Shown piece by piece: positions 15,408-61,304 of a DNA stretch of 64,000 nt. Below the pieces are notes generated by a model. That model was not told the origin of the DNA. It was given only the letters and a program-made list of their open reading frames with translations, and searched no databases. The stretch lies in assembly GCA_001818695.1 (NCBI GenBank), contig MHJG01000009.1, positions 309 through 64,308 on the forward strand, given 5' to 3'. The DNA is from Candidatus Harrisonbacteria bacterium RIFCSPHIGHO2_02_FULL_42_16 (lineage in GTDB: Bacteria > Patescibacteriota > Minisyncoccia > UBA6257 > 02-FULL-45-10c). The position numbers were made by a program, and so were the translations under genes. How positions within the stretch are numbered: the first letter of the stretch is position 1; each line of letters begins with the position of its first letter.

Positions 15408-15917
15408 ATGTTAAGTAAATCAAAAATTCAAACCCAAAAATTGGCGGTTCGTTTTGCCAAAAAAATTCTACACTTTACACTTCACACCCCACACCCTAAA
15501 GCAAGTATAATTGCTCTTCACGGCGACTTGGGCGCCGGCAAGACCACCTTTATTCAGGGATTTATGAAAGCGCTTGGAGTAAAACAGCATATCACCAGCC
15601 CCACATTTGTGATATTTAGAAAATATTCAATAAGGGTTAGGGGTAGGGCCAAAAGCCAAAAGAAAAAATTTTTATCCCCTACCCTATTGGCTAGACCCTA
15701 TGAAAATGCATATCATTTTGACCTTTATCGTATTCATAAACCAAAAGAAATTTTAAATTTAGGATTCAAGAAAATCATAAGCGACCCGCGGAATATCATT
15801 TTAATTGAGTGGCCGGAAAGAATTAAAAAACTCTTGCCGAAAAATACCATTTGGATTTATTTTGAGCACGGGAAAAATGACAAAGAAAGGATTGTAAAAA
15901 TAAATAACAATTTGTAA
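15408..15917 (+). CDS. tsaE: tRNA t6A37 biosynthesis ATPase TsaE (with in-frame repeat insertion)
   Basis: P-loop GDLGAGKTTF, ..SPTFVIF..YHFDLYR..ILIEWPE TsaE motifs. An extra 25 aa (SIRVRGRAKSQKKKFLSPTLLARP) is encoded by the G-rich repeat at 15633-15698. Confidence 0.75.
   Translation: MLSKSKIQTQKLAVRFAKKILHFTLHTPHPKASIIALHGDLGAGKTTFIQGFMKALGVKQHITSPTFVIFRKYSIRVRGRAKSQKKKFLSPTLLARPYENAYHFDLYRIHKPKEILNLGFKKIISDPRNIILIEWPERIKKLLPKNTIWIYFEHGKNDKERIVKINNNL
15633..15698. repeat. G-rich TAGGG-type repeat element with imperfect terminal inverted repeats, in-frame inside tsaE
   Basis: agggttaggggtagggcc...aaaagccaaaag...tcccctaccctattgg. Confidence 0.7.
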
Positions 15918-16359: not shown

Positions 16360-16364
16360 TTTAT

Positions 16365-18024: not shown

Positions 18025-18074
18025 TATAAATTATCTACTATCTATGCGATCGCATAGATAGTAGATAATTTATA
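18025..18074. repeat. 50-bp perfect palindrome (left copy) TATAAATTATCTACTATCTATGCGATCGCATAGATAGTAGATAATTTATA
   Basis: Read directly. The core 38 bp is identical to the right copy except at one central base. Confidence 0.9.
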
Positions 18075-18676: not shown

Positions 18677-18724
18677 AGATTGATGTTAAAATTAATTTAA
18701 AATCATATTATCATAGAGTTATTA

Positions 18725-18766
18725 AATTATCTACTATCTATGCGACCGCATAGATAGTAGATAATT
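18725..18766. repeat. 42-bp near-perfect palindrome (right copy) ..TTATCTACTATCTATGCGACCGCATAGATAGTAGATAA..
   Basis: Read directly. One central mismatch relative to the left copy (GCGATCGC vs GCGACCGC). Confidence 0.9.
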
Positions 18767-20327: not shown

Positions 20328-21650
20328 ATGCGGAAGTTTTTCAAAAATTTTAGGCAATATCTGAAATCGCCGGAGGTGAAAATGATGTGGCTGTTTTTGT
20401 TTTTGGTGTTGTTGATCGTGGCGATTGATATTTTTTTTCTTGAGCCGCTTTGGGCTGGCGTCAGCGCAACCATTTTAGTTTCCGCAGGCATTGTTATTTT
20501 GTTTGTTAATTTCCGTTCGGCAAAAACCACCGTTCAATTGCGGCTGGAAAAATCGCGGCTGGATAATGTAATCGCCGGCATAGATGATGGAATTATTATT
20601 TATGATGAAAATTTTCAGGTTTTGCTTTTTAATCCGGCCGCCGAAAAGATTTTTAATGTTAAAAAAGAAGCGTTGACAAGCGGCAAGCTTTCTCCGGAAA
20701 GCGTTCAAAATCCGAATTTATCCGTTTTAGCCAAAGTAATTTTTCAGTCGCTGGCGCCTTTGGTTGTGCTTCAATCGCCGGAGGGGGTCTATCCGCAGGT
20801 GGCGGATATTTCTTTTGAAGAACCGCGGCTTCAATTAAGAGTGTTAACCGACAGGATATTGGATGAAAACGGGCAAGTAACGGCATTTATAAAAATTGTC
20901 CGCGATCAGACACGGGAAGTGGAACTTTTGCAATCCAAAAGCGATTTTATCACCGTTGCCGCCCATCAGCTTAGAACGCCGCTTTCGGCGGTTAATTGGT
21001 CATTGGAATCGCTACAAAAAGAAAATCTTAATGGCGGCCAGAAGGAACTGGCGGAAACCGGATTAAGCGCCGCGAGAAATCTTTCCAAAATCGTGGAGGA
21101 TTTGCTTAATGTTTCTAAAATTGAAGGCGGCAAGTTCGGTTATAATTTTCAGCAGCTGGATATAGTGAAATTTTTGCAGTCGGCAGTTGAGCAGGCCTCT
21201 GTTGTCGCTAAGGATTATAAGGCGAGCGTTTATTTGGAGCCGCCGAAAGAACCGTCCATTATTTTGGAAGCCGATTTGGAACGGTTGGGTTTGCTGATGT
21301 CTAATCTTTTGGAAAATGCCATAAAATACAATGTGGAAAACGGCAAGGTGACGGTTAGCGTTGAGCGTAGGACAGACGCCCCCTTTATTCAAGTTAATGT
21401 CGCTGATACCGGAGTGGGCATTCCTCAGGAAGCGATGAATAAGATTTTCACTAAATTTTTCCGGGCGGAGAATGTGGCGGAAAAAGAAACAGAAGGGTCC
21501 GGTCTCGGCTTATATATCGCAAAAAATGTCGTCAATCGGCACGGTGGCCAGATTTGGGCGGAATCGGTTGAAGGACGGGGCGCGATTTTTCACTTTACTT
21601 TGCCAACCGACCCGCGATTGATACCGCAACGCGAGATAGCCAATAGTTAA
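20328..21650 (+). CDS. sensor histidine kinase (2 TM, PAS-like, HisKA + HATPase)
   Basis: H-box AAHQLRTPLSAV, N-box NLLENAIKYN, G-boxes DTGVGI / GSGLGLYIAK. No adjacent response regulator. Confidence 0.85.
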   Translation: MRKFFKNFRQYLKSPEVKMMWLFLFLVLLIVAIDIFFLEPLWAGVSATILVSAGIVILFVNFRSAKTTVQLRLEKSRLDNVIAGIDDGIIIYDENFQVLLFNPAAEKIFNVKKEALTSGKLSPESVQNPNLSVLAKVIFQSLAPLVVLQSPEGVYPQVADISFEEPRLQLRVLTDRILDENGQVTAFIKIVRDQTREVELLQSKSDFITVAAHQLRTPLSAVNWSLESLQKENLNGGQKELAETGLSAARNLSKIVEDLLNVSKIEGGKFGYNFQQLDIVKFLQSAVEQASVVAKDYKASVYLEPPKEPSIILEADLERLGLLMSNLLENAIKYNVENGKVTVSVERRTDAPFIQVNVADTGVGIPQEAMNKIFTKFFRAENVAEKETEGSGLGLYIAKNVVNRHGGQIWAESVEGRGAIFHFTLPTDPRLIPQREIANS

Positions 21651-21713
21651 GGTATAAGTTTTAAGTTTTGTCCCGTTTAACTTATAACTTAAACTTTTAT
21701 AACTTATAAAACT

Positions 21714-23150: not shown

Positions 23151-23197
23151 CAACTTATCCGTTGTAAGTTATAAGTTGTTTGTTATAAGTTAGAGGT

Positions 23198-24029: not shown

Positions 24030-24278
24030 CTAATTTATTAATTTTGTCAGCCGAGATTTAAGCCGCGCCGCTTTGTTCGGCTTTATGACTCCGGCTTTGG
24101 CGGTTTTGTCCAGCGCTTTATAGACATTGGATAGTTCGTTTTTAGCAGCCGCTTTATTGCTTGCCGCCATTTTTTTATAGTTTTTCAGAATTTTATGAAG
24201 CGTGTTTTTGCGCTGGAGATTTCGCGCTCTATGCCGCAGATTTTGCCTATATGCTTTTTTTGCTGATTTGGTAATCAT
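24030..24278 (-). CDS. rpsT: 30S ribosomal protein S20
   Basis: SAKKAYRQNLRHRARNLQRK... is a typical S20 sequence. Confidence 0.85.
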   Translation of the reverse strand: MITKSAKKAYRQNLRHRARNLQRKNTLHKILKNYKKMAASNKAAAKNELSNVYKALDKTAKAGVIKPNKAARLKSRLTKLIN

Positions 24279-24295
24279 AGTATGCGAATAATTAT

Positions 24296-24328
24296 TTAGG
24301 GTATAGGGTTTAGGGTATAGGTTATAGG
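24296..24328. repeat. G-rich TAGGG-type repeat block (intergenic copy)
   Basis: ttagggtatagggtttagggtataggttatagg. Confidence 0.7.
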
Positions 24329-31540: not shown

Positions 31541-31612
31541 CTATTTTCTAATTATATCTAATAGTTGAATAGATAATATAGTTTATAGTTTACAGATATT
31601 TAAAATAGTTTA

Positions 31613-40105: not shown

Positions 40106-41716
40106 CTACATTTTCTTCGGCTTGCTGATGCCGAGGATGCTAAATAGATTTTCCAGCGCGATTTTTGTCGCGGAAACGAGCGCGAGGCGCGCTTGAGCTG
40201 TCTCTGGCTCGGCATCAATAACCCGTTCTTTTTCATAAAAGTTATGGAATGAACGCGCCAGCCGGGCGGCGTATTCTGTTAACCGATGCACTTGGTAATC
40301 TTTCACGGTTTGCGCCAAAACATCCGGAAATTTCATCAATTCCAGCATAAGCTTAATTTCAGTGATAGAATTTAGCATTTTTAAATTATTATTTGTCGCT
40401 TGTCGCTTGTCGCTTGTCGCTTTTCGTAAGATGTGTAAACATCTTACGAAAGCGTACTGAACATAATAAACCGGATTTTTCTGCGAACGTTCTTTTGCCA
40501 AATCCATATCAAAATCCATATGCGTGTCCAAAGAGTGCATTAAAAAGAAAAATCTGGCGGCATCCAAACCGACTTCTTTTAGCAAATCATCCAGCGTTAC
40601 AAATTCACCGGCGCGCTTGGACATCTTCACTTCTTTTCCTTTGCTTATCAGCCGCACTAATTGGGTAATTAAAATTTTAAGCCGTTTCGGTTTTACGCCC
40701 AGCGCTCTAATGCCGCTTTCCATTCGCGCTTTATAGCCGTGGTGGTCTGCTCCCCAGATATCAATCGCCAAATCAAATTTTCTTTTTAAAAATTTATCGT
40801 AATGATAAGCCAAATCCGCTAAAAAATAAGTCGGATTGCCGTCGGATTTTATCAAAACAGCATCTTTTAGCCACATAGCCCCATCTTTTTCATAAACCAC
40901 CTTTTTTCCCTTGAGAAATTTTAATGTTTTTTTGAGCTCTCCTTTTTTATGTAAATTTTTATCTTCCGAAAACCAAATATCGTGCTTGATGCCCGCATTT
41001 TTAAGAGATTTTTTTATTTCTTTAAATAAAATTTTAGCCGCTTCTTTTCCGATTTTTTCGCCATCGTAATTTTTTACTTTTAACTTTAAACTTTTAACTA
41101 AGTCCTTGACGTATTCTCCTTTATAATACTCATCTTTCCAGGGAATTTTTCCTTCAGCCGCCAAAATGCTTTCTCCCAAGAGCTTGATTTGATTGCCGGC
41201 ATCGTTAATATAGTATTCTCGCGTTACTTTATGGCCGGAATTTTCTAATACATTCGCCAGAACATCGCCATAAAATCCGGCGCGGCCGTTGGCCATAGTC
41301 AGCGGACCGGTTGGGTTGGCGGAAACGAATTCAAGGTTTATTGTTCGATGTTTGGTGTTTGGTGTTTGGTGTTTTAAACTGCCATATTTATTTTTTTGTT
41401 TTAGTATTGCTTTCAGTTCATTCTGCAGAATTTCCGGTTTCAGCCAAAAATTTACGAAACCCGGCGACACCGCTTCGATTTTAGCAAAAATCGATTTTGA
41501 GCTTGTTGGGGGGCTACTTAATTTTGATGCTATTTCTTTTGCGATTTCAAACGGCGTCTTTCCCGCCATCCCCGAAGAAGCTTTGTTTGTCGGGGTAAAC
41601 TTAAAAGCCATATTTGTAGAATAGTGTCCAAAATTTTCCTTTTCGGAAGCAAAAACTTCAATACCTATTTTTTCTTTAATTGCTTTTTGAAGCTGGTTTT
41701 TGATTTGCTCAATCAT
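40106..41716 (-). CDS. argS: arginyl-tRNA synthetase
   Basis: ArgRS N-terminal add-on domain, catalytic core SANPTGPL(TMAN)GR in place of HIGH, KMSKR, DALR anticodon-binding domain. Confidence 0.9.
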   Translation of the reverse strand: MIEQIKNQLQKAIKEKIGIEVFASEKENFGHYSTNMAFKFTPTNKASSGMAGKTPFEIAKEIASKLSSPPTSSKSIFAKIEAVSPGFVNFWLKPEILQNELKAILKQKNKYGSLKHQTPNTKHRTINLEFVSANPTGPLTMANGRAGFYGDVLANVLENSGHKVTREYYINDAGNQIKLLGESILAAEGKIPWKDEYYKGEYVKDLVKSLKLKVKNYDGEKIGKEAAKILFKEIKKSLKNAGIKHDIWFSEDKNLHKKGELKKTLKFLKGKKVVYEKDGAMWLKDAVLIKSDGNPTYFLADLAYHYDKFLKRKFDLAIDIWGADHHGYKARMESGIRALGVKPKRLKILITQLVRLISKGKEVKMSKRAGEFVTLDDLLKEVGLDAARFFFLMHSLDTHMDFDMDLAKERSQKNPVYYVQYAFVRCLHILRKATSDKRQATNNNLKMLNSITEIKLMLELMKFPDVLAQTVKDYQVHRLTEYAARLARSFHNFYEKERVIDAEPETAQARLALVSATKIALENLFSILGISKPKKM

Positions 41717-47639: not shown

Positions 47640-48302
47640 TTATTCGAGCGACGTTCGTTTTTTTAGTTTTTCAAAATCGTAGAGGATAAATATGGCTAAA
47701 ATTGTCAGGAAGATAGTCGGAATAACCGATGGTTCATATCTGATTATAAGGGAATTGAAGAAAGCATGCAAGGCCGTAGCCAGTGCAAAACCTGTTAATA
47801 ATAGCCATTTTTTATTCAATGACATGGCTTTTGCCCAGTAATATCCCAATAAGCCGGAGCTTAGGGTATGAAGGAGGGTTGCTCCTATGAATCTTAAGGT
47901 GGTGGTCTCAAATGCCAGCGAACCGGTTTTAACAGCGGCGGCGACATTTTCCACGGCGGCAAAGCCCAAAGCGGCGACTATCATATAAATCATTGCGTCC
48001 ACCGGCTCGTCAAAGTCCTTTGGGTGTTTGCCGATTACCAGCCGCGCCGCCCCGAATTTAAAAAATTCTTCAATGCCCGCCAAAACTATAAAAGAAATAA
48101 AGCTGTATTTTATTATGCCGTTAAAATTAGCCCAGTCGTTAAATAAAATCTGAACCTGGAGAACGATAAAGGTGCTTAGGGCTCCGGCTAAGAAGACCTC
48201 AAAAAGAAGTTTTTTCGGCTCTGGATGCGGGTCTTCTTCCAAATAAAAAATCAGCCAAGCAAATGACGGCAGAAGGCCAAGTATGAGAGGGAGAGTTACC
48301 AT
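47640..48302 (-). CDS. PrsW-family intramembrane metalloprotease (M82-like)
   Basis: EExxK (IEEFFK), FxxxE (FAAVE) and HxxxN (HAFFN) motifs within TM helices. Confidence 0.55.
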   Translation of the reverse strand: MVTLPLILGLLPSFAWLIFYLEEDPHPEPKKLLFEVFLAGALSTFIVLQVQILFNDWANFNGIIKYSFISFIVLAGIEEFFKFGAARLVIGKHPKDFDEPVDAMIYMIVAALGFAAVENVAAAVKTGSLAFETTTLRFIGATLLHTLSSGLLGYYWAKAMSLNKKWLLLTGFALATALHAFFNSLIIRYEPSVIPTIFLTILAIFILYDFEKLKKRTSLE

Positions 48303-50437
48303 TTTTCTATCATTAAAAATTCTTTATTTTTATTCGGCAGGTTTTGATAAATTTCTTCCGTAAGATGCGGCATAAACGGATGGAGCATTTTTATGACTTC
48401 TAAAAGCGCGTTATTCAAAACTATTTTTACTTCTTCGTCATTTCGCCCCTTGCTTGATTCAATATATTTATCCGCGAATTCATGCCAGACAAAATCATAT
48501 AAAGAATGAAGCGCTTGTCCGAATTCATAAGTGTCAACTTGTTTAGAAACCTGTTTTTTAGTTGTATTAAGTTTTTTAATAAATTCTTTATCTTCATCAA
48601 ACGCTGATTTGCTCGGATTGCCGCGCTGATTTTCGCCGATATTTTTTCCGCGTGTATCCGCATTTGAGTCCGTGTTAATCTGCGAAGGTTTATTCATTAG
48701 AATAAATCTGGCAACATTCCATACCTTATTCGCGAATTTTTTTCCCGCTATAACCGCATTTTCATCCCAGTGGATATCTTGATTGCCCATGGCCTGCCAG
48801 ATTAAGCCGAAACGGGTGGCATCCGCTCCGTATTTTTCAATTAAAATCATCGGGTCAATGCCGGTGCCGAGCGACTTGGACATCCGTTTGCCGTCTTTGG
48901 TGAGAATGGTGCCGTGGATAATTACATCGGAGAACGGTTTTTGTCCCGTGAATTCTAAGCCGGAAAAAATCATTCTGGCTACCCATAAATTTATAATATC
49001 TCGGGCGGTGGAAATGACTTGGGTTGGATAAAATTCTTTTAAATCTTTGGTTTTGTCCGGCCAGCCAAGCGTGGCAAACGGCCAAAGCGCGGATGAAAAC
49101 CAGGTATCCAAAACATCTGTTTCTCCTTCAAGCGGAATTTTGTGTCCCCACCATATTTGGCGGGAAACATTCCAGTCGCGGATATTTTCCAGCCAGCTAA
49201 AATATATTTTTTCCCAATTTTTCGGATGGAATTTCACTTCGCCGCTTTTTACCGCTTTAATCGCCAGCTTCGCCAATTCGTTCATTTTTAAAAACCACTG
49301 CAAGCTCGGCTGGGGTTCAATCACGCCGTTACAGCGATAACAAACCGCGACATTGTGATTATAGTCCTCTTCCTTTTCAATTAGATTTTGGTTTTTTAAT
49401 TCTACCATTACTTTTTCGCGGCACTCTAAAACTTTCAGTCCGGCGCAAAGCTGGCCGGCTTCCGGCGCCATTTTCCCTAGCGGGCCGATTACTTTATATA
49501 CGGGCAGTTTATGTTTTTCTCCTATGCGCGCGTCCAATAAATCATGAGCCGGCGTTAATTTTACCGCGCCGGTTCCGAATTCCATGTCAATTTCTTCATC
49601 GGCGATAATCGGAATTTCGCGATTTTGAATCGGCAGTAAGACCTTTTTACCGATTAAATTTTTATACCGCTTATCTTTTGGATTAACCGCTATCGCGGAA
49701 TCGCCGAGCATCGTTTCCGGCCGAGTGGTGGCAACGATAATAAATCCTTTTTCGTTTAATAGCGGATATTTGATATGCCATAATTTACTTCTCTCCTCCT
49801 TATATTCAAGTTCCAAATCTGACAAGCTGGTTTGGCACCGGACGCACCAGTTGATTACCCGTTCGGCTTTGTAAAGCCATCCTTTTTTATAGTAACGCAG
49901 AAACGCCTCATTGACCGCTTTCTGGTATTGCTCATCCATCGTGAAACGGACGCGCGACCAATCCATAGAACAGCCGAGTTTTTTGAATTGATTTAAAATA
50001 ATGCCGCCGTATTTTTCTTTCCATTCCCAGACCTTTTCTAAAAATTTTTCCCGCCCCAAATCATGGCGAGATACATTTTGTTTTTTCAGTTCTTTTTCCA
50101 CGACATTCTGGGTGGCAATGCCGGCGTGGTCAGTGCCCGGAAGCCAGAGGGTCTTATAGCCCTCCATCCGTTTTTTCCGGATTAAAATATCCTGAATGGC
50201 CGCGTTAAGCGCGTGTCCCATATGGAGCGAGCCAGTCACATTCGGAGGCGGCACGACAATAGTATAGCTTGACACTTGTTGCTTGATGCTTGATGCCGCC
50301 GGAAGATTGTCCGGATTAAAATAGCCGGATTTTTCCCAAAGCTGATAAATTTTATCTTCTACTTCTTTCGGATTGTAGGTCTTGCTTAATTCTTTTGGCA
50401 TTGATATAATCTTAAAAGATTTTTTATTCTTTAACAA
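48296..50437 (-). CDS. valS: valyl-tRNA synthetase (short form lacking C-terminal coiled coil)
   Basis: HMGH (SLHMGHALN), KMSKS, ValRS-type N-terminus YNPKEVEDKIYQLWEKSGYF, CP1 editing domain. Confidence 0.85.
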   Translation of the reverse strand: MLKNKKSFKIISMPKELSKTYNPKEVEDKIYQLWEKSGYFNPDNLPAASSIKQQVSSYTIVVPPPNVTGSLHMGHALNAAIQDILIRKKRMEGYKTLWLPGTDHAGIATQNVVEKELKKQNVSRHDLGREKFLEKVWEWKEKYGGIILNQFKKLGCSMDWSRVRFTMDEQYQKAVNEAFLRYYKKGWLYKAERVINWCVRCQTSLSDLELEYKEERSKLWHIKYPLLNEKGFIIVATTRPETMLGDSAIAVNPKDKRYKNLIGKKVLLPIQNREIPIIADEEIDMEFGTGAVKLTPAHDLLDARIGEKHKLPVYKVIGPLGKMAPEAGQLCAGLKVLECREKVMVELKNQNLIEKEEDYNHNVAVCYRCNGVIEPQPSLQWFLKMNELAKLAIKAVKSGEVKFHPKNWEKIYFSWLENIRDWNVSRQIWWGHKIPLEGETDVLDTWFSSALWPFATLGWPDKTKDLKEFYPTQVISTARDIINLWVARMIFSGLEFTGQKPFSDVIIHGTILTKDGKRMSKSLGTGIDPMILIEKYGADATRFGLIWQAMGNQDIHWDENAVIAGKKFANKVWNVARFILMNKPSQINTDSNADTRGKNIGENQRGNPSKSAFDEDKEFIKKLNTTKKQVSKQVDTYEFGQALHSLYDFVWHEFADKYIESSKGRNDEEVKIVLNNALLEVIKMLHPFMPHLTEEIYQNLPNKNKEFLMIEKW

Positions 50438-50998: not shown

Positions 50999-52252
50999 TT
51001 ATAATGTCAAATTGCCGTTAGCTACTAATTGAAGACCTTTTTTCTTTTTTTGTAGTAAATTTATATACGCCGCGGCGGCAATCATGGCGGCGTTGTCGGT
51101 ATTATATTCATAGTCGGGGACTACAAAATTTAGTTTTAAGTCAAAAGTTGTAAGTTTTAAGGTTTCGCGCAAAGCGCGATTGGCGGAAACTCCGCCGCAT
51201 AATAATACGGATTTTGCTTTGAATTCTTTAGCGGCGCGGAGAGTTTTTTGCGTTAATACATCAATTACCGCTTTTTGGAAACTGGCGGCTACATTAGCAA
51301 GAAAATTATTTTTTTCCGAAACCTCCACAGCCGGCTTGGCGCGGCCCCCGCTATGCTGGGCAAGGCGGCGAGGACTAGCGAGTGAGTCGCTGGATGAACG
51401 AAGCGGGTTGAGGGAAGAATAATTTTCTTGCGAATGATCGCGGAGATAATAGAGAACCGAAGTTTTTAATCCCGAGAAACTGAAATTATACACATCTTTT
51501 ACATTTTTAGGATTTAGTAATGGGCGGGGGAATTTAATCGCGTCGGGATTGCCCCTGGCGGCGAGTTTCTGTATTTCCGGGCCGCCGGGATAAGGAAGTT
51601 TCAGCATTCGCGCCACTTTATCAAAGGCCTCTCCGGCAGCGTCATCCAATGTCTCGCCGAGCTTGGTCCATTTTGTGATGCTTTTCATATTTAATAAAAT
51701 AGTGTGCCCTCCGCTTACAATCAAGGCGACGGCGGGGAATTTTATTTTAGGGTTTAGGGTAGAGGGTTTAGGGTAGAGGGTTTTTGTATTTTTTTTAGAA
51801 ATTAGAAATTTGGAATTAGAAATTTCAGCTGTTTTTTTTGGTAAAAAACAGCTGTATAGATGCCCTTCCATATGGTTTACTCCGATAAGCGGCTTATTTA
51901 GTTTTTTGGAAAGTTCTTCGGTAAAATTGATTCCGGTCCAAAGCGCCGGTTCCAATCCGGGCCCGACAGTGGCAGCGATATAATCGGGGTTTAGGCCATT
52001 CGGCTCTGAGAGCCTCAGGCTCGTAGAGGTAGAGGGTTTAGGGTTTAGGGTTTTAAAAATTTTAGGCAAATTTTTCAGATGTTCTCTTTTCGCCAAATTT
52101 GGCACCACGCCGCCGAATGGGCGATGAACCGCTATTTGGGAAGAAACGATATTTTTTAGAACTTGAAATTTCGGGGATTTTAAACCGCCGCCGCATTTTA
52201 CCAAAGCGATGGATGTTTCATCGCAAGATGTTTCTATAGCAAGAATTTTCAT
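50999..52252 (-). CDS. tsaD: tRNA N6-adenosine threonylcarbamoyltransferase TsaD (Kae1/Gcp family) with two in-frame repeat insertions
   Basis: IETSCDETS, HMEGHL, ALIVSGGHT, DDAAGEAFDK and other conserved motifs. 417 aa instead of about 340. Extra loops NPKPSTSTSLRLSEPNGLNP and PKKTAEISNSKFLISKKNTKTLYPKPSTLNPKIK are encoded by the G-rich repeats. Confidence 0.85.
   Translation of the reverse strand: MKILAIETSCDETSIALVKCGGGLKSPKFQVLKNIVSSQIAVHRPFGGVVPNLAKREHLKNLPKIFKTLNPKPSTSTSLRLSEPNGLNPDYIAATVGPGLEPALWTGINFTEELSKKLNKPLIGVNHMEGHLYSCFLPKKTAEISNSKFLISKKNTKTLYPKPSTLNPKIKFPAVALIVSGGHTILLNMKSITKWTKLGETLDDAAGEAFDKVARMLKLPYPGGPEIQKLAARGNPDAIKFPRPLLNPKNVKDVYNFSFSGLKTSVLYYLRDHSQENYSSLNPLRSSSDSLASPRRLAQHSGGRAKPAVEVSEKNNFLANVAASFQKAVIDVLTQKTLRAAKEFKAKSVLLCGGVSANRALRETLKLTTFDLKLNFVVPDYEYNTDNAAMIAAAAYINLLQKKKKGLQLVANGNLTL
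51748..51784. repeat. TTTAGGG/TAGAGGG G-rich repeat block inside tsaD (copy 1)
   Basis: ttagggtttagggtagagggtttagggtagagggttttt. Confidence 0.8.
52025..52053. repeat. TTTAGGG/TAGAGGG G-rich repeat block inside tsaD (copy 2)
   Basis: agaggtagagggtttagggtttagggtttt. Confidence 0.8.
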
Positions 52253-52256
52253 TTAG

Positions 52257-52328
52257 TAGTCCCGACGGGAATCGAACCCGTATTCCCACCGTGAAAGGGT
52301 GATGTCCTAGCCGTTAGACGACGAGACC
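52257..52328 (-). tRNA. tRNA-Glu (anticodon UUC)
   Basis: Minus strand GGTCTCG-TC-GTCT-AACGGCTA-GGAC-A-TCACC-CTTTCAC-GGTGG-GAATA-CGGGT-TCGATTC-CCCGT-CGGGACT-A. Anticodon loop CUUUCAC. 72 nt. The 3' end is 5 nt from the tsaD start. Confidence 0.75.
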
Positions 52329-52410: not shown

Positions 52411-52680
52411 GGAGAGCCGGATTCAAACTAACATCAATTTAGTGAGCCAATTCCCGTCCAGATTCAAGGCACGAGGAAGCGCAGTGTGCCAGTAGGCACA
52501 TAAGCGACGAGCAACGAAGAAGATGGATTGGAATTGGCTCACCCGAAGGGAAGAGAGAATTTGGCCAATTTCTTTGTCACTCCTCGTCGGGGTGCTTACT
52601 AGCACGACCCCCTCGTCGTTCCTAGAACTTGGCTTAAATTATCTCTTTTAAATTTGACGGTAGTTTGAATTCGGCTCTCC
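52411..52680. ncRNA. candidate structured non-coding RNA (unknown class) with nested inverted repeats; strand undetermined
   Basis: Outer IR GGAGAGCCGGATTCAAACTA / TAGTTTGAATTCGGCTCTCC (1 mismatch), inner IR GTGAGCCAATTCC / GGAATTGGCTCAC, hairpin GGGGTGCT-tact-AGCACGACCCC, CUUCGG tetraloop on the minus strand. GC well above background. Ends 6 nt before the eno start. Confidence 0.3.
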
Positions 52681-56492: not shown

Positions 56493-58154
56493 ATGCAAAC
56501 AAAAAAACCATCTTTTTTATTCTATGGCGTTTTGTTGGCGATTTTAGCATTGGCAGGCATTGGAAAAATTGATTTAATTGGCCGTAAATCGCCTTACTCT
56601 TTGCTTACCGCTCAAGTCGTGGACCTTGACACTTCTGGCGCGGAAGATATTAATATTGGCGCCCCTCCTTCTTCATCGACTGATTTAACCGCGAGAAAAT
56701 GGGAAATCGGAACCGCTAAAATTATTAAATGGGAATGGCAAGACCTTGAAGAAGGCAAACGGTTTGATGTTGTGCTGGAGCCGGTTACGGCCGAAGAAGC
56801 GGAGGTAATTGTTGTAATAGAGGAAAAGAAAAAAGATGATTTTCCGATAATTGAAGACAAACTGCCAATAATAATAGATGATACTAAAAACGATTTTCCG
56901 ATAATTGAAGACAAACTGCCAATAATAATAAATGACCTTAATGACAAGGCAGAAGAACTTATTAAGGAAATCTGCAAGGAAGAAAAGTCATTTTTAAATG
57001 TTATTAGCGGCGGTTTGCTTGGAATATCTAAATGCGTAATTAAAGACACTCCGGAAACAATTGAAAAAGAAAAGCAATTGGAAAAGATTCTTGAGGAACG
57101 GCAAGATAAGCTGATTGATTTGATTAAAACCGACCCGGAAAAAATATCGGAAATAACTAATTTAGAAAAAGAGCGCGAAAAACTGCCGGATAATCTTAAA
57201 GATTTAATTGAAAAAGAAGTAAAAATTAATGGAGTATTGGAAATCGTTGGAGAAAAGTTTTCCATAATCAGGACCGACACGCCTGCGGGGAAGAAAAGAA
57301 TATGGATTTATTTTACCATTTCTCCCAAACTTGCTCCCGGAAGTAAAATTGAGGTTGTCGGAAAAGAGATAGGCGGCAATATTATTGTTTCTGCTTATAA
57401 AATTATTACCGGTCCCGAGCCGGAGACGCCGCAGATAATCGGCCTTGCTCCGTTCGGCGAGGTATTAGCCGGAACGGAAACATTGATTCGCTGGGAAAAT
57501 ATCGGCGAAGTTACGGATATAGTAAATATCTATCTTGTGAAAGTCGGTAGGGATTACAAGAACTCAATAAAGACCCTTTTATATTTTGAAATATACAATA
57601 GCGGAGAGGCGCTTTTGGATAAGGCAGTTTGGAACAAAATCGACAAAATAGAATCCGGAGAAAATTATTATCTCGCCGTGGAATGCGCGCCGTCCGTTGC
57701 TTGCGAGGGCTCTTTCTATTTTTTTACCATTAAGCCGGCGTTGCAGACAATTCTTTCTACCAAAGCAATTTTTACCAAGACAAAAGAAGAGCACAGATTT
57801 ATAGCTGTGAATTTACCCGCTAACAAGGGCTTTGATTTGGAAGAAATTAAGGCCGCGCAGAAGAATCCAGAATTGGAGAAAAATTTAAAAGGATTTGATA
57901 TAGGATTTGGGCCCAGCGCGGTATTGTTTGGATTCGGTGAATATGAATCAGATGGCTCAGTATTATTTGGAGGTCATTGCGGACCGGAAGTTCTTGGTTT
58001 TCAGAGTTACGCGCCTAAATTATGCCCGTGGTCAAAGTGTATTAGTACGGATTACAGTACCGATGAAATTACTAATAATTTAAGTATGGATTACGCAATG
58101 CCCATTTGGGAAGAAATTCGCAAAACTTACGCTTGCGAAGATAAAAATAATTAG
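56493..58154 (+). CDS. large hypothetical secreted/membrane-anchored protein with internal 45-nt tandem repeats
   Basis: N-terminal TM. DDFPIIEDKLPIII(D/N)D repeated (DNA 56835-56935). No known domain. Confidence 0.5.
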   Translation: MQTKKPSFLFYGVLLAILALAGIGKIDLIGRKSPYSLLTAQVVDLDTSGAEDINIGAPPSSSTDLTARKWEIGTAKIIKWEWQDLEEGKRFDVVLEPVTAEEAEVIVVIEEKKKDDFPIIEDKLPIIIDDTKNDFPIIEDKLPIIINDLNDKAEELIKEICKEEKSFLNVISGGLLGISKCVIKDTPETIEKEKQLEKILEERQDKLIDLIKTDPEKISEITNLEKEREKLPDNLKDLIEKEVKINGVLEIVGEKFSIIRTDTPAGKKRIWIYFTISPKLAPGSKIEVVGKEIGGNIIVSAYKIITGPEPETPQIIGLAPFGEVLAGTETLIRWENIGEVTDIVNIYLVKVGRDYKNSIKTLLYFEIYNSGEALLDKAVWNKIDKIESGENYYLAVECAPSVACEGSFYFFTIKPALQTILSTKAIFTKTKEEHRFIAVNLPANKGFDLEEIKAAQKNPELEKNLKGFDIGFGPSAVLFGFGEYESDGSVLFGGHCGPEVLGFQSYAPKLCPWSKCISTDYSTDEITNNLSMDYAMPIWEEIRKTYACEDKNN

Positions 58155-58538: not shown

Positions 58539-61235
58539 TTATTGATTTAGCGACCGCATTTTAATATCAAAGGCGGCGAGTTGGGATTTAGAGATTTCCA
58601 AGCCAGCGGAACGGTATTCCTGATAGCCGGATTTGAAGCAGGTTAGGTAGTATTTGCCCGGCGCCACCAGGAAATTGAATCTACCTTGTTCGTCGGTAGC
58701 TTTGGTGGCGAGCAGCATATTTTTTTCTTGAGCAAAAATTCTTACCACTGCCAGCGATAACGGCGCTTGGGTAGTTTGGTCCAGAACTTTTCCGAACGGT
58801 TTGATGAGGTGGAAAGCGAAATAAATTTTCAGCGCATCCAGGATAATATAAACGGCAAATATGGCGTAATTCAGCCAGGTCGGGACGATAATCGCGGCGG
58901 TTAAGCTGATAATCGTTCCGAACGCCAGCAGGTAAGGATTGATTAAGTCAATAAATCTTTTGAGTGCGTCCAGAATTTTTATCCGCCAGATGTATTTCAG
59001 GTCAAATTCTTTTTGAATCGGCGTAAGGAAAAATTCCAGGTTTAAAATCTGGTCCGGTGAAGCGATATTTACGGTTTCGCTTTGTAATGGCTGGTAGCCG
59101 TCTTTGATTATTTTGAGATAGTAATTTCCCGGCGTTATCGTCGCTTCAAACCGGCCTTCGCCGTCGGTTACCCGCGTATCTTTGAGTTTTTGATATTCAG
59201 CGTCATAGATATAAACTACTGCCGAGAGTATTGGCTTATTGCTTAGTTTATCAAAAACTATGCCCCAGGGTTTTCTTTTTCGGAATCGCAAAAATCCGAA
59301 TAAATAAAATCGCGACAGATTTATAAATTGTGTTATTTGGGACAGTAAAGAAGCGGCGGTAGCGCTACCAGTGGAAGCGGCTACGACAAGCGAGCTGGCG
59401 CCGACCGCGGAAACAGCGACCGAGGCCGGAATCGCTACCTCTTTTACGGTATTAACCACCACCGGATTGGAGCGCAGTTCTCGGGTGACTCTTACTGCTT
59501 CTTTGGTAATTTCTTTATTAACTTTTTTTATTGCTTCAGGAACATCAGTGAGTTTAGTAATTGTTCCGGTCGCGATTATATTTTGGATTATTCCACCTCC
59601 TCCACCTCCGCCCCCGCCTCCTCCACCGCCGATTGTCTGAATAATAGTAATGATAGTTGTTATAACATCTGTATCCGCTTCATTATTATCCGAAACGCTT
59701 AAACATCCCGGGTCGTTCGGATAGTCAATTTTTCCGTCTCCGTCATTATCTTTGCCGTCAGAACATTGAAATACGGGCGGTGGAATAATTAAACAATCCG
59801 CCGAACAGTTTAGCGAAGTTTCTCCTTTATCTACTTCGCAGATATTATTGCCGCAAATAGTTTGTTGGCTGGCTACGCATTTATTGTTTTTGCATAGAAA
59901 ATCGGACGGACAATCGGAATCTTTAGTACAGGACGGCGCCGCTGCGCAATCCGTTGTGCAATTTAAATTGGTTTCGTCAGCTTCACAGACAAGATTGCCG
60001 CAAACAGATTTAGTGATATCTTGCGGGCATTCTGATGTGTTTTCATCTAATTCGCAAATAATCAACGCTCCAAGAAAAGGTTTTTTTGGTGGCGGGATCG
60101 GGTCGGTTTCGTCATTATCTGAAGCGCCGCCCGAGCATCCCGGGTCAGCCTTATCAATCAGGCCGTCGCCGTCATTATCTTCGCCATCGGAGCATTGGAA
60201 ATTAATAATGGCAACACAATCCCCGCATAGCCGAGTTTCCCCAGATTCGCAGATATTATTGTTATTACAAGATAGAGGAATTATTATATCGGTCTCATCA
60301 TTGTCAGTAGCAGAAGAACATCCCGGGTCATTTGGATAATCAATTTTTCCGTCGCCGTCATTGTCTTTGTTATCGGAGCATTGATAAGTAGGTGGAGGAG
60401 GGCAATCTGTGGTGCAACCACCTCCTTTGTTATGCGCCAGTATTCCTTCCGCGAAATAATTTTCTGTGTTTGAAACATGGAAATTGTACACTGCTATATT
60501 TTTTTCTATCCGTTGAAAATTTATGATTTCATCTGGGACAAGTTCGTCGTTGTTTAGGAAGAAAATAACATTACCATTTTGGAGTTCTTTAACCCGTCTA
60601 TAACCGGTTGACGTATAAAGCGGATGTTCCGCAGTTACGAAGATTTTCCTGCCGCTTGCCGTAGAAATATCGTAATAATGGTCGGATAGCCGCTTAAACG
60701 TTCTCAAGACCGTTACTTCTCTGGATTTGTTTGCGCTTAAATCATAGCCGATTACGCTATCGCCAATAAGCACATCTTCTACATTTTTAGTTCCGGTAGG
60801 GATAAGTATTTTTGTTCCTGCCAAAAAACTACCGTCCCCGCCCCCTTCAACCGTACAAACATTAGAACTTACATTTACGGTAATGTTTATAGTGCCGGCG
60901 CCGGACATAGAGCCGGTATCAATGGTCGCCGAAGATTCGGAAAGGGAGCAAGAGCGGCCGGTGTAGCCGGTGGTATTGGGGTCAAAAGTTAAATCCCGCC
61001 GGTCTGCAGACCTAACTTTCAGGTATTGGCCGGCGGCCATAGTAACCGTAAAACTGTTGCCGCTAAAAGTAATTTGATTTAGGGTGCCGGCGCTTCCTTG
61101 CACATCTAAAAGAACGCCATTCACGCTAAGCTGAATTTCGCCGGAATTTAACAGTAAATCCGCTAAAGCATTTTGAAAATAAAAAAGAGCGAAAATTAGA
61201 ACAATTATCCCCAAAAATCGTTTTTTAAGTTTCAT
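58539..61235 (-). CDS. large surface protein: signal peptide, Hint/bacterial-intein-like (BIL) domain, TSP3-like Ca-binding Cys repeats, poly-Gly linker, TM segments, two CarboxypepD_reg-like domains
   Basis: Hint blocks SFLAGTKILIPTG...TAEHPLYT...YNFHVSNTENYFAEGILAHN (ends HN, no +1 nucleophile). DNDGDGKIDYPNDPGC repeats x3. G13 run. VTDGEGRF..PGNYYLKIIKDGYQ x2. Confidence 0.65.
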   Translation of the reverse strand: MKLKKRFLGIIVLIFALFYFQNALADLLLNSGEIQLSVNGVLLDVQGSAGTLNQITFSGNSFTVTMAAGQYLKVRSADRRDLTFDPNTTGYTGRSCSLSESSATIDTGSMSGAGTINITVNVSSNVCTVEGGGDGSFLAGTKILIPTGTKNVEDVLIGDSVIGYDLSANKSREVTVLRTFKRLSDHYYDISTASGRKIFVTAEHPLYTSTGYRRVKELQNGNVIFFLNNDELVPDEIINFQRIEKNIAVYNFHVSNTENYFAEGILAHNKGGGCTTDCPPPPTYQCSDNKDNDGDGKIDYPNDPGCSSATDNDETDIIIPLSCNNNNICESGETRLCGDCVAIINFQCSDGEDNDGDGLIDKADPGCSGGASDNDETDPIPPPKKPFLGALIICELDENTSECPQDITKSVCGNLVCEADETNLNCTTDCAAAPSCTKDSDCPSDFLCKNNKCVASQQTICGNNICEVDKGETSLNCSADCLIIPPPVFQCSDGKDNDGDGKIDYPNDPGCLSVSDNNEADTDVITTIITIIQTIGGGGGGGGGGGGGIIQNIIATGTITKLTDVPEAIKKVNKEITKEAVRVTRELRSNPVVVNTVKEVAIPASVAVSAVGASSLVVAASTGSATAASLLSQITQFINLSRFYLFGFLRFRKRKPWGIVFDKLSNKPILSAVVYIYDAEYQKLKDTRVTDGEGRFEATITPGNYYLKIIKDGYQPLQSETVNIASPDQILNLEFFLTPIQKEFDLKYIWRIKILDALKRFIDLINPYLLAFGTIISLTAAIIVPTWLNYAIFAVYIILDALKIYFAFHLIKPFGKVLDQTTQAPLSLAVVRIFAQEKNMLLATKATDEQGRFNFLVAPGKYYLTCFKSGYQEYRSAGLEISKSQLAAFDIKMRSLNQ
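59594..59632. repeat. 13 consecutive glycine codons (CCN/GGN homopolymeric-like tract) inside the BIL-domain protein gene
   Basis: ccacctcctccacctccgcccccgcctcctccaccgcc on the plus strand = G13 on the minus strand. Confidence 0.8.
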
Positions 61236-61304
61236 AGAAAATGATATAATTAACAATGGATTATTATGCCTGTCAAATTGTGATATTGAAATTATAACAT
61301 TACG

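What the first reader, a model, noticed from the sequence alone, without database searches (positions are those of the whole stretch)
51748..52053. Telomere-like TTTAGGG/TAGGG G-rich repeat blocks inserted in-frame into both t6A-biosynthesis genes (tsaD x2, tsaE x1) and one intergenic site
Four related G-tract repeat blocks were read. Two are in tsaD: ttagggtttagggtagagggtttagggtagaggg at 51748-51784 and agaggtagagggtttagggtttaggg at 52025-52053. One is in tsaE: agggttaggggtaggg...cccctaccctattgg with inverted ends, at 15633-15698. One is intergenic, upstream of rpsT (24296-24328). In tsaD and tsaE they add low-complexity loops (..PKPSTSTSLRLSEPNGLNP.., ..LYPKPSTLNPKIK.., ..RVRGRAKSQKKKFLSPTLLARP..) without breaking the frame or the catalytic motifs. 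Each block has four or more GGG runs, which is the requirement for G-quadruplex formation, in a genome that is otherwise AT-rich. It is striking that two functionally linked essential genes carry the same repeat family. This suggests either a small MITE-like element that tolerates or prefers in-frame insertion, or a regulatory G4 or RNA hairpin acting on t6A gene expression.
Basis: seen in the sequence. Interest (0 to 1): 0.65.

Follow-up and report, generated by a model that had tools for sequence, protein, structure and literature searches.

The report
Seven-base repeats inside t6A genes
The telomere-like G-rich blocks are real, but they are one flavour of short 7-base tandem repeats that pervade this tiny-celled (CPR/Parcubacteria) bacterial lineage. 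The repeats sit in frame in floppy surface loops of a few housekeeping enzymes, above all the two t6A tRNA-modification proteins TsaD and TsaE and valyl-tRNA synthetase.

Summary
The four blocks exist at the stated places, and GGGTTTAGGG occurs 5 times against 0.15 expected. They are in-frame, lineage-specific loop insertions in TsaD and TsaE, assembled identically in independent metagenomes.

They are not a special telomere-like element. Period-7 tandem arrays are about 20-fold over-represented in the window (11 against 0.55), with many different units. Arrays also lie in argS, valS and intergenic hairpins.

In 1.9 Mb of related CPR DNA, period 7 again dominates (127 and 100 arrays). More than 80 different units were seen. 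Density is 6.8 per 10 kb in tsaD, 8.6 in tsaE and 2.4-4.2 in valS. It is zero in most neighbouring gene families.

The arrays recur at the same loops with different units. They are A-rich and G-poor on the sense strand, stop-free, and encode basic K/S/N/Q-rich peptides predicted to be disordered.

Only one block is a true G4 motif, and it lies on the template strand. The tsaD mRNA segments are unstructured.

Best reading: slippage or template-switch heptamer repeats, of the STRR / heptameric-SSR kind, filtered by protein-level selection in permissive loops. The G4, RNA-hairpin and MITE readings are not supported. The concentration in t6A genes is real and unexplained.

The parts
50999..52252 (-). 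tsaD (417 aa), host gene. It carries three loop insertions relative to T. maritima TsaD: +11, +28 and +40 aa.
   Evidence: The AlphaFold2 model has pLDDT <50 at aa 71-85, 139-168 and 278-307.
51744..51794 (-). 51-nt lineage-specific insertion in tsaD loop 2. It is seven heptads plus 2 nt, with core CCCTCTA/CCCTAAA x5 on the sense strand. The + (template) strand reads TTTAGGG/TAGAGGG. It contains the only G4 motif of the window (51750-51780).
   Evidence: It is a clean gap in L005. The unit that would read CCC-TAA in frame is CCCTCTA.
51795..51824 (-). Second array in tsaD loop 2. The sense strand reads AATTTCTAATTCCAAATTTCTAATTTCTAA and encodes ISNSKFLIS. It is identical in relative L005.
52025..52053 (-). 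tsaD loop-1 array. The sense strand reads CCCTAAA CCCTAAA CCCTCTA and encodes TLNPKPSTS. A small palindrome, GAGCCTGAGGCTC, follows it.
51317..51436 (-). tsaD loop-3 insertion (aa 273-312). It has no 7-nt periodicity and is a different kind of low-complexity insert.
15408..15917 (+). tsaE (169 aa), host gene.
15469..15496 (+). tsaE N-terminal array, TACACTT x2 then CACACCC x2, encoding HFTLHTPH. It is homologous to CCCTATA/CCCTACA arrays in relatives L088 and L092.
15633..15698 (+). tsaE hairpin-loop insertion of about 22 aa between SPTFVIFRKY and YHFDLYR. The right arm, CCCCTACCCTA, aligns with CCCTCAA/CCCTAAA arrays of L088 and L092. The left arm, AGGGTTAGGGGTAGGG, occupies the place of their AAGTCCA/AAGTGAA arrays and is the inverse complement of the right arm.
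24297..24328 (+). Intergenic array TAGGGTA x4.6. It lies 19-50 nt upstream of the rpsT start (rpsT 24030-24278, minus strand).
40393..40426 (-). argS array, sense GCGACAA x4, encoding KATSDKRQAT.
41071..41099 (-). argS array, sense AAAGTTA type, encoding VKSLKLKVK.
41342..41374 (-). argS array, sense CCAAACA x4, encoding KHQTPNTKHRT.
50275..50296 (-). valS array, sense GCATCAA x3, encoding ASSIKQQ.
21648..21709 (.). Intergenic inverted pair of heptamer arrays (TAAGTTT... / ...TAACTTA) forming a hairpin between the histidine-kinase gene and fpg.
   Evidence: The fold is -12.9 kcal/mol, z = -2.1.
23161..23192 (.). Intergenic array GTTATAA x4.6, downstream of a terminator-like hairpin.
31577..31592 (.). 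Short intergenic array TATAGTT x2.3.

Best explanation
The blocks are heptanucleotide simple-sequence repeats. This is the same kind as cyanobacterial STRR and the heptameric SSRs of Xanthomonas and Nostoc. They are endemic to this Parcubacteria/Paceibacteria (CPR) lineage.

How they arise (inferred): strand slippage and intrastrand template switching during replication, in a 7-nt register. Arrays appear both between genes, often as inverted pairs that make hairpins, and inside genes.

How they survive inside genes: only where four conditions hold.
1. The total added length is a multiple of 3.
2. No stop codon arises in any of the three frames the array is read in.
3. The sense strand is the A-rich, G-poor one, so the peptide is hydrophilic and basic (K/S/N/Q-rich, poor in D/E/G).
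4. The site is a disordered surface loop.

A few loops are such permissive sites: three in TsaD, one or two in TsaE, and several in ValRS, ArgRS and other aaRS. At these sites arrays persist and turn over. Related genomes therefore carry different units at the same position.

The telomere-like TTTAGGG look is one unit family among more than 80. It is shared by several sites of this genome and by tsaE of its closest relatives.

The arrays most likely have no G4 or RNA-structure role. They add tolerated, possibly mildly useful, basic linkers.

What is shown: the periodicity, the distribution, the frame, stop and composition filters, the insertion status and the predicted disorder. What is inferred: the slippage and template-switch origin, and near-neutrality.
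For: Periodicity:
- Window: 11 period-7 arrays against 0.55 expected. Periods 4-12 otherwise sit at chance.
- 80 tsaD-centred loci from GTDB genomes (1.22 Mb): 127 period-7 arrays, against 3, 28, 16 and 9 for periods 5, 6, 8 and 10.
- 80 tsaE-centred metagenome loci (0.70 Mb): 100 arrays, against 8 and 17 for periods 6 and 8.
- The four non-CPR loci hold one array.

Diversity: 82 canonical units among 127 arrays.

Distribution:
- tsaD holds 59 arrays in 87 kb, in 39 of 78 genes.
- The valS/ileS family holds 33 in 140 kb.
- Class-II aaRS hold 4, the CCA-adding enzyme 2 and argS 3.
- No arrays occur in PrsW (40 genes), HSP20 (39), a glycosyltransferase-like family (35), DUF11 (26), RecO (24), NusA (16), M16 (15), RecG (10) or H+-PPase (10).
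- tsaE holds 32 arrays in 37 kb, in 25 of 76 genes. Nearly all lie in one hairpin loop.
- PilB 0/35, RuvB 0/35 and PolA 2/47 genes carry arrays. MreB, PBP1, MurA, FtsH, IF-2 and GyrB carry none.

Filters:
- Sense-strand composition of the arrays is A41 C20 G11.5 T27.5, against a background of A28 C22 G24 T26.
- Net charge is +13 per 100 aa against +0.7. Only 1 of 113 arrays has an in-frame stop.
- Stop avoidance alone predicts T-rich units and +6 per 100 aa.
- In both tsaD CCCTAAA arrays, the unit read as CCC-TAA is CCCTCTA.

Insertion status:
- Gaps of 28 and 40 aa against T. maritima TsaD (6NAK), and 24 aa against HI0065 (1HTW).
- A 51-nt clean insertion relative to L005.
- pLDDT <50 with no secondary structure exactly at the inserts.

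Template switching: in the tsaE alignment, the left arm of the window replaces a same-phase array of relatives with the inverse complement of the right arm. Many intergenic arrays are inverted pairs.

Not an artefact: the identical gene is found on 20 contigs from independent assemblies, 99.98-99.995% identical with no gaps.

Against: - No copy-number change of any array was seen. This holds among four assemblies of this population and among related contig pairs of 86-99.9% identity. Only one 7-nt indel was found, and it was not in an array. Slippage is therefore slow or strongly filtered, and its role is inferred, not observed.
- Density in tsaD (6.8 per 10 kb) and tsaE (8.6) exceeds that of non-coding DNA in the same loci (1.9 and 5.3). 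Simple 'tolerance' does not predict this.
- Essential genes are odd places for repeats in which a one-unit slip shifts the frame.
- Arrays of one genome share units about twice as often as arrays of different genomes: 20% against 10% within one mismatch. This hints at copying between sites or a genome-specific bias that slippage alone does not explain.
- Counts across genomes are not phylogenetically independent. A few ancient founding events per loop could inflate the apparent hot spots.
- Genes were called with a crude longest-ORF rule, and families were named from one representative each.
Confidence: 0.58

Rival explanations
1. Adaptive appendages. The arrays are kept because the basic, flexible peptides they encode act as extra non-specific tRNA-binding arms on tRNA-handling enzymes (TsaD, TsaE, ValRS, IleRS, ArgRS, class-II aaRS, CCA-adding enzyme). 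This would resemble the lysine-rich extensions of eukaryotic aminoacyl-tRNA synthetases. The DNA repeat would be only the raw material.
For: - All 8 coding arrays of the window lie in tRNA-handling genes, which make up about 16% of its coding DNA.
- In the tsaD-centred set, about 102 of 114 coding arrays lie in tRNA-related families. In the tsaE-centred set the figure is 37 of 55.
- The peptides carry +13 net charge per 100 aa, more than stop avoidance alone gives.
- Density exceeds that of intergenic DNA.
- The 30-nt AATTTCT array is identical in the window and L005, although the genes are about 77% identical.
Against: - Arrays also occur in Fpg, UvrB, PolA, PrsW, YebC, SHMT, a Mur ligase and LTD proteins.
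- One class-II aaRS family (8 genes) and IF-2 have none.
- About half of tsaD genes and two thirds of tsaE genes have no detectable array.
- Peptide sequences are not conserved across lineages.
- The sampled neighbourhoods were centred on tsaD and tsaE, so other tRNA genes are poorly sampled.
- No binding data exist.
Confidence: 0.2
2. A small mobile element, MITE-like or like the Rickettsia palindromic elements or cyanobacterial small dispersed repeats. It would insert, or be copied, into many sites including ORFs and would tolerate in-frame insertion.
For: - The same TAGGG-type unit family occurs at four or five sites of this genome.
- Units are shared within genomes about twice as often as between genomes.
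- The loop-2 block is a discrete 51-nt insertion.
- Some copies are hairpins.
Against: - There is no common element sequence or length. Copies share only a 7-nt unit and differ in unit number and order.
- 82 unit types were seen across relatives.
- No target-site duplication is visible at any of the four blocks (read).
- No terminal inverted repeats exist apart from the tsaE case, which the alignment explains as conversion of an existing array.
- No transposase is associated.
Confidence: 0.08
3. A regulatory G-quadruplex (DNA) or RNA structure controlling expression of the t6A genes.
For: - 51750-51780 is a canonical G3N4 x5 motif and the only one in 64 kb.
- G-rich heptamer repeats of Xanthomonas and Nostoc form G4 in vitro (PMC4692102).
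- One array lies in the rpsT upstream region.
Against: - Three of the four blocks have only 3 GGG runs.
- The G-rich strand is the template strand of tsaD, so the mRNA is C/A/U only and unstructured.
- The tsaE hairpin is no more stable than shuffles.
- Arrays at the same loops in other genomes are mostly A/T-rich. Only 6 of 127 and 7 of 100 have CCC/GGG or CCCT/AGGG units. G4 potential is therefore not conserved.
Confidence: 0.05
4. Contingency loci. One-unit slippage (7 nt, a frameshift) switches tsaD or tsaE off and on, giving phase-variable t6A modification.
For: - A 7-nt unit shifts the frame.
- Arrays sit in both genes of one pathway.
- SSR-driven phase variation is well established in other bacteria (cited in PMC4692102).
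Against: - The arrays are short (3-5 units) and imperfect.
- They lie mid-gene in housekeeping enzymes.
- There are no length variants among four assemblies or among related contig pairs of 86-99.9% identity.
- The same arrays occur in valS and argS, where an off state should be lethal.
Confidence: 0.05
5. An assembly artefact, or contamination by eukaryotic (plant-type) telomere reads.
For: TTTAGGG is the plant-type telomere unit, and MAGs can be chimeric.
Against: - The blocks are in frame inside conserved genes.
- They are interrupted exactly where a stop would arise.
- They are present on 20 contigs from independent assemblies and samples.
- They are homologous to arrays in related genomes.
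Confidence: 0.01

Closest known systems
Heptameric simple-sequence repeats. These include the cyanobacterial STRR sequences (Calothrix/Nostoc) and the GGGAATC / GGGGA(C/T)T repeats of Xanthomonas and Nostoc (Rehm et al. 2015, PMC4692102, and the Mrazek-group surveys cited there).
   Same: - Tandem 7-nt units, strongly over-represented relative to other periods.
- Dispersed at many loci, typically 3-5 units long.
- Occasional inverted pairs that can form hairpins.
- The G-rich strand is avoided as the sense strand inside ORFs.
- One local copy is a G4 motif.
   Different: - Here most arrays lie inside ORFs, in frame: 8 of 11 in the window and 114 of 138 in the first set. The described cases are mainly intergenic.
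- There are dozens of mostly A/T-rich units rather than one or three G-rich ones.
- Arrays concentrate at fixed loops of a few genes (tsaD, tsaE, valS).
- The host is a CPR lineage, for which my literature searches found no description.
Rickettsia palindromic elements (RPE; from my own knowledge: Ogata et al. 2000).
   Same: Repeated DNA inserted in frame into essential housekeeping genes, adding surface peptide segments without destroying function.
   Different: RPEs are discrete 100-150-bp palindromic elements with a family consensus. Here there is no element consensus, only a 7-nt periodicity, and inserts are 20-80 nt.
Low-complexity inserts in Plasmodium falciparum housekeeping proteins, including aminoacyl-tRNA synthetases (from my own knowledge).
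   Same: Slippage-derived, hydrophilic (Asn/Lys-rich), disordered inserts at loop positions of conserved enzymes in an AT-rich reduced genome.
   Different: The Plasmodium inserts are codon-repeat (period 3) based and much longer. Here the DNA period is 7, so each array is read in all three frames.
Quasipalindrome-templated mutation, that is, intrastrand template switching (from my own knowledge).
   Same: The tsaE insert looks like an existing array converted into the inverse complement of the neighbouring array, making a more perfect hairpin.
   Different: Only this one case is documented here, by alignment of three relatives. No direct mutational evidence exists.

Membership tests
Heptameric SSR / STRR-type repeats | Head-to-tail tandem copies of a 7-nt unit | tested here: met
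   TRF and my own period scan. Units are in register in tsaD, tsaE, argS, valS and intergenic sites.
Heptameric SSR / STRR-type repeats | Genome-wide excess of period 7 over other periods and over chance | tested here: met
   11 against 0.55 in the window. 127 and 100 arrays in related loci, against 3-28 for periods 5, 6, 8 and 10.
Heptameric SSR / STRR-type repeats | Mainly intergenic location, as described for Xanthomonas and Nostoc | tested here: not met
   8 of 11 arrays in the window are inside ORFs. So are 114 of 138 and 55 of 100 in related loci.
Heptameric SSR / STRR-type repeats | Unit-number variation between related strains | tested here: not met
   No gaps among four assemblies. 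No 7/14/21-nt indels in arrays among related contig pairs of 86-99.9% identity. Unit replacement without length change was seen, for example L027 against L029 in valS.
G-quadruplex-forming repeats | At least four G3 tracts with loops of 1-7 nt | tested here: not met
   Met by only one of the four blocks (51750-51780). The others have 3 tracts.
G-quadruplex-forming repeats | G4 folding of the oligonucleotide in vitro | not testable with these tools
   Needs CD or thioflavin-T assays.
MITE / Rickettsia-palindromic-element-like mobile insert | Element consensus with defined ends, shared by the copies | tested here: not met
   The copies share only the 7-nt unit. There are 82 units in relatives.
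MITE / Rickettsia-palindromic-element-like mobile insert | Terminal inverted repeats and target-site duplication | tested here: not met
   No flanking direct repeats at the four blocks. Inverted ends occur only in tsaE, and explains them as arm conversion.
MITE / Rickettsia-palindromic-element-like mobile insert | In-frame insertion into conserved ORFs | tested here: met
Phase-variable contingency locus | Length polymorphism of the repeat within or between close populations | tested here: not met
   These are consensus assemblies only; read-level data were not available.
Telomere repeats | Long terminal arrays at the ends of a linear replicon | tested here: not met
   The blocks are 3-5 units long and internal to genes. 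The window contains dnaA and dnaN and ordinary chromosomal genes.

The most novel reading that the evidence does not exclude
In Paceibacteria and other CPR bacteria, heptamer arrays are not just tolerated junk. They would be a lineage-wide, site-specific system that keeps renewing short basic peptide loops in the t6A machinery (TsaD, TsaE) and in aminoacyl-tRNA synthetases. Two routes are possible: selection for extra tRNA affinity in these reduced cells, or a still unknown targeted repeat-generating or copying process that shares units between sites of one genome.
Probability: 0.2. Interest if true: 0.75.

Novelty: new variant of a known kind. Interest (0 to 1): 0.6.

Why it matters
- Annotation. 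Many odd low-complexity loops in CPR housekeeping proteins would be explained by one DNA-level process. These loops change protein lengths by up to 25% (TsaD runs from 330 to 437 aa). This matters for annotation, alignment, phylogeny and structure prediction of CPR proteins.
- Protein evolution. The arrays give a natural experiment in how a frame-independent repeat, read in all three frames, is filtered into acceptable peptide. The filters seen here are stop avoidance, strand choice and charge.
- An open question. The concentration in the two t6A enzymes and ValRS across dozens of species is unexpected. If it is adaptive, it would point to a cheap way for reduced genomes to tune tRNA binding.
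- A caution. It removes a tempting but wrong 'bacterial telomere-like G4 regulator' reading.

Tried and rejected
- Peptide search. I searched 5.8 billion proteins with array-encoded peptides (NFQFPIS x5 plus ATSDKRQ x5) to get an unbiased list of host gene families. It returned only short spurious ORFs over long intergenic heptamer arrays in Treponema, Xanthomonas, Burkholderia and cyanobacteria, so it was uninformative for the question.
- Indel search. I looked for plus or minus 7-nt indels between closely related contigs and found none in arrays. The main indels were instead 17-20-nt palindromes.
- RNA structure or RNA G4 in tsaD: rejected, because the mRNA segments have no G and no fold.
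- Telomere or contamination: rejected.
- MITE: rejected, because there are no target-site duplications, no terminal inverted repeats and no consensus.
- Weak period-7 signals. The signal at 51145-51165 lies in a conserved part of tsaD and is near chance (score 8), so it is not counted. The signal in ileS (37913-37938) is below threshold.
- Stop avoidance as the sole cause of the G-poor sense strand: rejected by simulation.
- Literature searches for a prior description in CPR or Patescibacteria found nothing. The library is incomplete, so this is weak negative evidence.
Full report
**1. Observation**

The sequences are as described.

- On the + strand, 51746-51783 reads TTTAGGG TTTAGGG TAGAGGG TTTAGGG TAGAGGG.
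- 52025-52053 reads AGAGGTAGAGGG TTTAGGG TTTAGGG.
- 15633-15698 reads AGGGTTAGGGGTAGGG...CCCCTACCCTATTGG.
- 24297-24328 reads TAGGGTA TAGGGTT TAGGGTA TAGGTTA.

The first two blocks lie in ORF 50999-52252 (minus strand). This ORF is TsaD: Pfam PF00814, thousands of homologues, and solved TsaD structures at E = 1e-70. The third block lies in ORF 15408-15917 (+), which is TsaE (PF02367). The fourth lies 19 nt upstream of the start of rpsT (S20).

Exact GGGTTTAGGG occurs five times against 0.15 expected.

Only 51750-51780 has four or more GGG runs, and it is the only G3N1-7 x4 motif in the window. The other blocks have three.

The organism is a Parcubacteria/Paceibacteria (CPR) bacterium (names of homologues). 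The window includes dnaA and dnaN.

The same tsaD is found on 20 contigs from independent assemblies. Four of them align to the window at 99.98-99.995% identity over 15-21 kb without a gap. The blocks are therefore not assembly artefacts.

**2. The blocks are insertions in surface loops**

Against T. maritima TsaD (6NAK), the protein aligns in three pieces. Residues 138-165 and 273-312 are unmatched, and there is an 11-residue excess at 69-89. Against H. influenzae TsaE (1HTW), residues 77-100 are unmatched.

In an alignment of 20 CPR orthologues (330-437 aa), all length variation sits at these loops. The catalytic motifs (HMEGH, SGGHT, TDN) are invariant.

An AlphaFold2 model gives pLDDT below 50 and no secondary structure at 71-85, 139-168 and 278-307. 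The core is modelled at moderate to high confidence.

DNA alignments with relatives show presence and absence directly.
- L005 (61% identical protein) has the neighbouring AATTTCT array, identical over 30 nt. It lacks a clean 51-nt segment (window 51744-51794) that contains the whole CCCTAAA/CCCTCTA block.
- L062 lacks both.
- Loop 1 has unrelated content in each of four genomes.
- The tsaE loop is short in L091 and long in the window, L088 and L092.

**3. The real pattern is a 7-nt periodicity, not a telomere-like motif**

Tandem Repeats Finder and my own scan show that period-7 arrays are the only over-represented short tandem repeats in the window. There are 11 against 0.55 expected, and periods 4-12 otherwise sit at chance.

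Their units differ. On the sense strand they are:
- CCCTAAA/CCCTCTA and AATTTCT in tsaD;
- TACACTT/CACACCC in tsaE;
- GCGACAA, AAAGTTA and CCAAACA in argS (40106-41716);
- GCATCAA in valS (48296-50437).

Intergenic arrays lie at 21648-21709 (an inverted pair forming a hairpin), 23161-23192, 24297-24328 and 31577-31592.

All eight coding arrays of the window lie in tsaD, tsaE, argS and valS. None lies in the roughly 55 other genes, which include dnaA, dnaN, a PBP, pilB, ruvB, polA, fpg, mur genes, RNase J and enolase.

**4. The pattern is lineage-wide and concentrated in a few genes**

*tsaD-centred set.* I fetched 80 loci (tsaD plus or minus 10 kb, 1.22 Mb, one genome per GTDB species).
- Period-7 arrays number 127, against 3, 28, 16 and 9 for periods 5, 6, 8 and 10.
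- They have 82 different canonical units.
- 56 of the 127 lie inside tsaD, which is 7% of the DNA. They recur at the same three or four loops with different units in different genomes.

With the window added, the 138 arrays divide as follows:
- tsaD: 59 in 87 kb;
- the valS/ileS family: 33 in 140 kb;
- class-II aaRS: 4;
- CCA-adding enzyme: 2;
- argS: 3;
- tsaE: 1;
- about 12 in all other coding DNA (about 0.9 Mb);
- 24 in 127 kb of non-coding DNA.

Conserved neighbouring families have none: PrsW, HSP20, a glycosyltransferase-like protein, DUF11, RecO, NusA, peptidase M16, RecG and H+-PPase.

*tsaE-centred set.* A second, independent set of 80 loci from metagenomes (0.70 Mb) gives 100 period-7 arrays, against 8 and 17 for periods 6 and 8.
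- 32 of them lie in tsaE, which is 5% of the DNA (25 of 76 genes).
- Nearly all are in the one hairpin loop between SPTFV..K[YF] and YH[FIL]D[CL]YR.
- valS again carries arrays: 5 arrays in 4 of 6 genes.
- Fpg, UvrB, PolA, PrsW, YebC, SHMT and lamin-tail-domain proteins have a few.
- PilB, RuvB, MreB, PBP1, MurA, FtsH, IF-2, GyrB and one class-II aaRS family have none.

*Caveats.* Genes were called by a longest-ORF rule, and families were named from one representative each. Several metagenome loci are near-duplicates. Counts across species are not phylogenetically independent.

**5. Filters acting on arrays in genes**

On the sense strand the arrays are A 41%, C 20%, G 11.5% and T 27.5%, against 28/22/24/26 for all coding DNA. 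The peptides have twice the usual K, S, N and Q, and a fifth to a half of the usual D, E and G. Net charge is +13 per 100 residues against +0.7. Only one of 113 arrays has an in-frame stop.

A simulation shows that stop avoidance alone would give T-rich units and +6 per 100 residues. There is therefore additional selection for the hydrophilic, basic orientation.

In both CCCTAAA arrays of tsaD, the unit that falls in the frame reading CCC-TAA is the variant CCCTCTA. This is direct evidence that the arrays are translated and shaped by the need to keep the frame open.

**6. Dynamics**

No array differs in unit number among the four assemblies of this population or among related contig pairs of 86-99.9% identity. 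The arrays are not hypermutable.

Unit replacement without length change does occur. One example is CAAATTC x3 against CAAATTC CAAGTTC CAAGTTC in valS of L027 and L029.

In tsaE, the right arm of the window (CCCCTACCCTA) is homologous to CCCTCAA/CCCTAAA arrays of L088 and L092. The left arm occupies the place of their AAGTGAA or AAGTCCA arrays, in the same phase, but has become the inverse complement of the right arm. This is what intrastrand template switching would produce.

Many intergenic arrays are inverted pairs around a short spacer.

Arrays within one locus share a unit (one mismatch or fewer) in 20% of pairs, against 10% for pairs from different loci. The sharing of the TAGGG family among tsaD, tsaE and the rpsT upstream region fits this modest genome-specific bias.

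**7. Structure-based readings**

The G-rich strand is the template strand of tsaD and of rpsT. The tsaD mRNA segments contain no G and fold at 0 to -2.9 kcal/mol. The tsaE segment can form a hairpin of -20 kcal/mol, but shuffles do as well (z = -0.6). Only the intergenic pair at 21640-21712 is somewhat better than chance (z = -2.1).

Arrays at the same loops in other genomes are mostly A/T-rich. Only 6 of 127 and 7 of 100 contain CCC/GGG or CCCT/AGGG units. G4 or RNA-hairpin regulation of the t6A genes is therefore not supported. A DNA G4 at 51750-51780 remains possible but would be incidental.

**8. Comparison with what is known**

Heptameric SSRs are known to be over-represented in many bacteria. 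Three heptamer families (STRR) were described in Calothrix. G-rich GGGAATC and GGGGA(C/T)T repeats were described in Xanthomonas and Nostoc. [quoted passage not shown]

The present case shares the defining periodicity, excess and dispersion. It differs in four ways:
- it is mainly intragenic and in frame;
- it uses dozens of mostly A/T-rich units;
- it recurs at fixed loops of tsaD, tsaE and valS;
- it occurs in CPR bacteria.

My searches found no description of this. The behaviour resembles Rickettsia palindromic elements and Plasmodium low-complexity inserts, both recalled from my own knowledge, but the defining features of those families are not met.

**9. Verdict**

The G4 and MITE interpretation is not supported.

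The best-supported explanation is slippage or template-switch heptamer repeats filtered into permissive protein loops (confidence about 0.58). An adaptive role as basic tRNA-binding arms is the main rival (about 0.2).

Two things remain unexplained: the strong concentration in the two t6A enzymes and ValRS, and the within-genome sharing of units. They are what makes the finding worth following.

Noticed in passing
window 35389-38991 (-): The 1200-aa isoleucyl-tRNA-synthetase-like protein carries a histidine-phosphatase domain (His_Phos_1, aa 530-703) inserted within the class-I synthetase domain.
   Followed up: no
window 18029-18072 and 18723-18766, ORF 18095-18676 (-): Two copies of a 44-nt perfect palindrome flank a 193-aa ORF with a PaaX_M/Cas2-like domain. 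The unit sits between a separate 5'-3' exonuclease gene (16326-17255) and a separate DNA_pol_A gene (18794-20317), whereas relatives such as L116 have one fused 886-aa PolA. It may be a mobile insertion that split polA.
   Followed up: partly
window 48578-48691 (valS, -): ValRS has a further insert, INTDSNADTRGKNIGENQRGNPSKSA, with no 7-nt period. Similar peptides (NTDSYADRRGK..NPR..RKSA) occur in TsaD loops of other CPR genomes (P0010, P0092), which suggests a second family of repeat-derived inserts.
   Followed up: partly
L110/L141, L103/L114/L146 (for example L110 5681 and 15986; L103 9500 and 10351): The main length differences between 87-99% identical CPR contigs are 17-20-nt palindromic insertions (CCTGCCTACCGGCAGGCAGG, GTCTACCTGCGTAAGCAG and similar). 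One of them lies in frame inside tsaE of L114 and encodes STCVSR. They look like very small mobile palindromes. tsaD loop 1 of the window has a similar small palindrome, GAGCCTGAGGCTC, at about 52000-52020.
   Followed up: no
window 52256-52328 (-): A tRNA-Glu(UUC) gene ends 3 nt upstream of the tsaD start codon on the same strand. A 30-nt inverted repeat (52411-52440 and 52651-52680) lies just beyond it.
   Followed up: no
window 51317-51436 (tsaD loop 3): This 40-aa insert (SSLNPLRSSSDSLASPRRLAQHSGGRAKPAVEV) is GC-rich, has no heptamer periodicity and contains a small hairpin (AGCGA-CTCAC-TCGCT). Its origin is unexplained.
   Followed up: partly
window 58539-61313 (-) and 61305-63611 (+): There are two large secreted-type proteins. 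One has a Hint/intein-like domain plus CarboxypepD_reg domains. The other has six LVIVD repeats, whose DNA repeats of about 126-147 nt show up at 62124-62973.
   Followed up: no
window 56815-56935: A 54-nt tandem repeat of 2.2 copies lies inside ORF 56493-58154.
   Followed up: no
proteins P0121-P0240: Long heptamer arrays with AATTTCC-like or GCGACAA-like units are annotated as short 'hypothetical proteins' in Treponema denticola, Xanthomonas, Burkholderia and filamentous cyanobacteria. The same units therefore form long arrays in unrelated phyla, and the short length of the ORFs suggests these arrays are intergenic.
   Followed up: no
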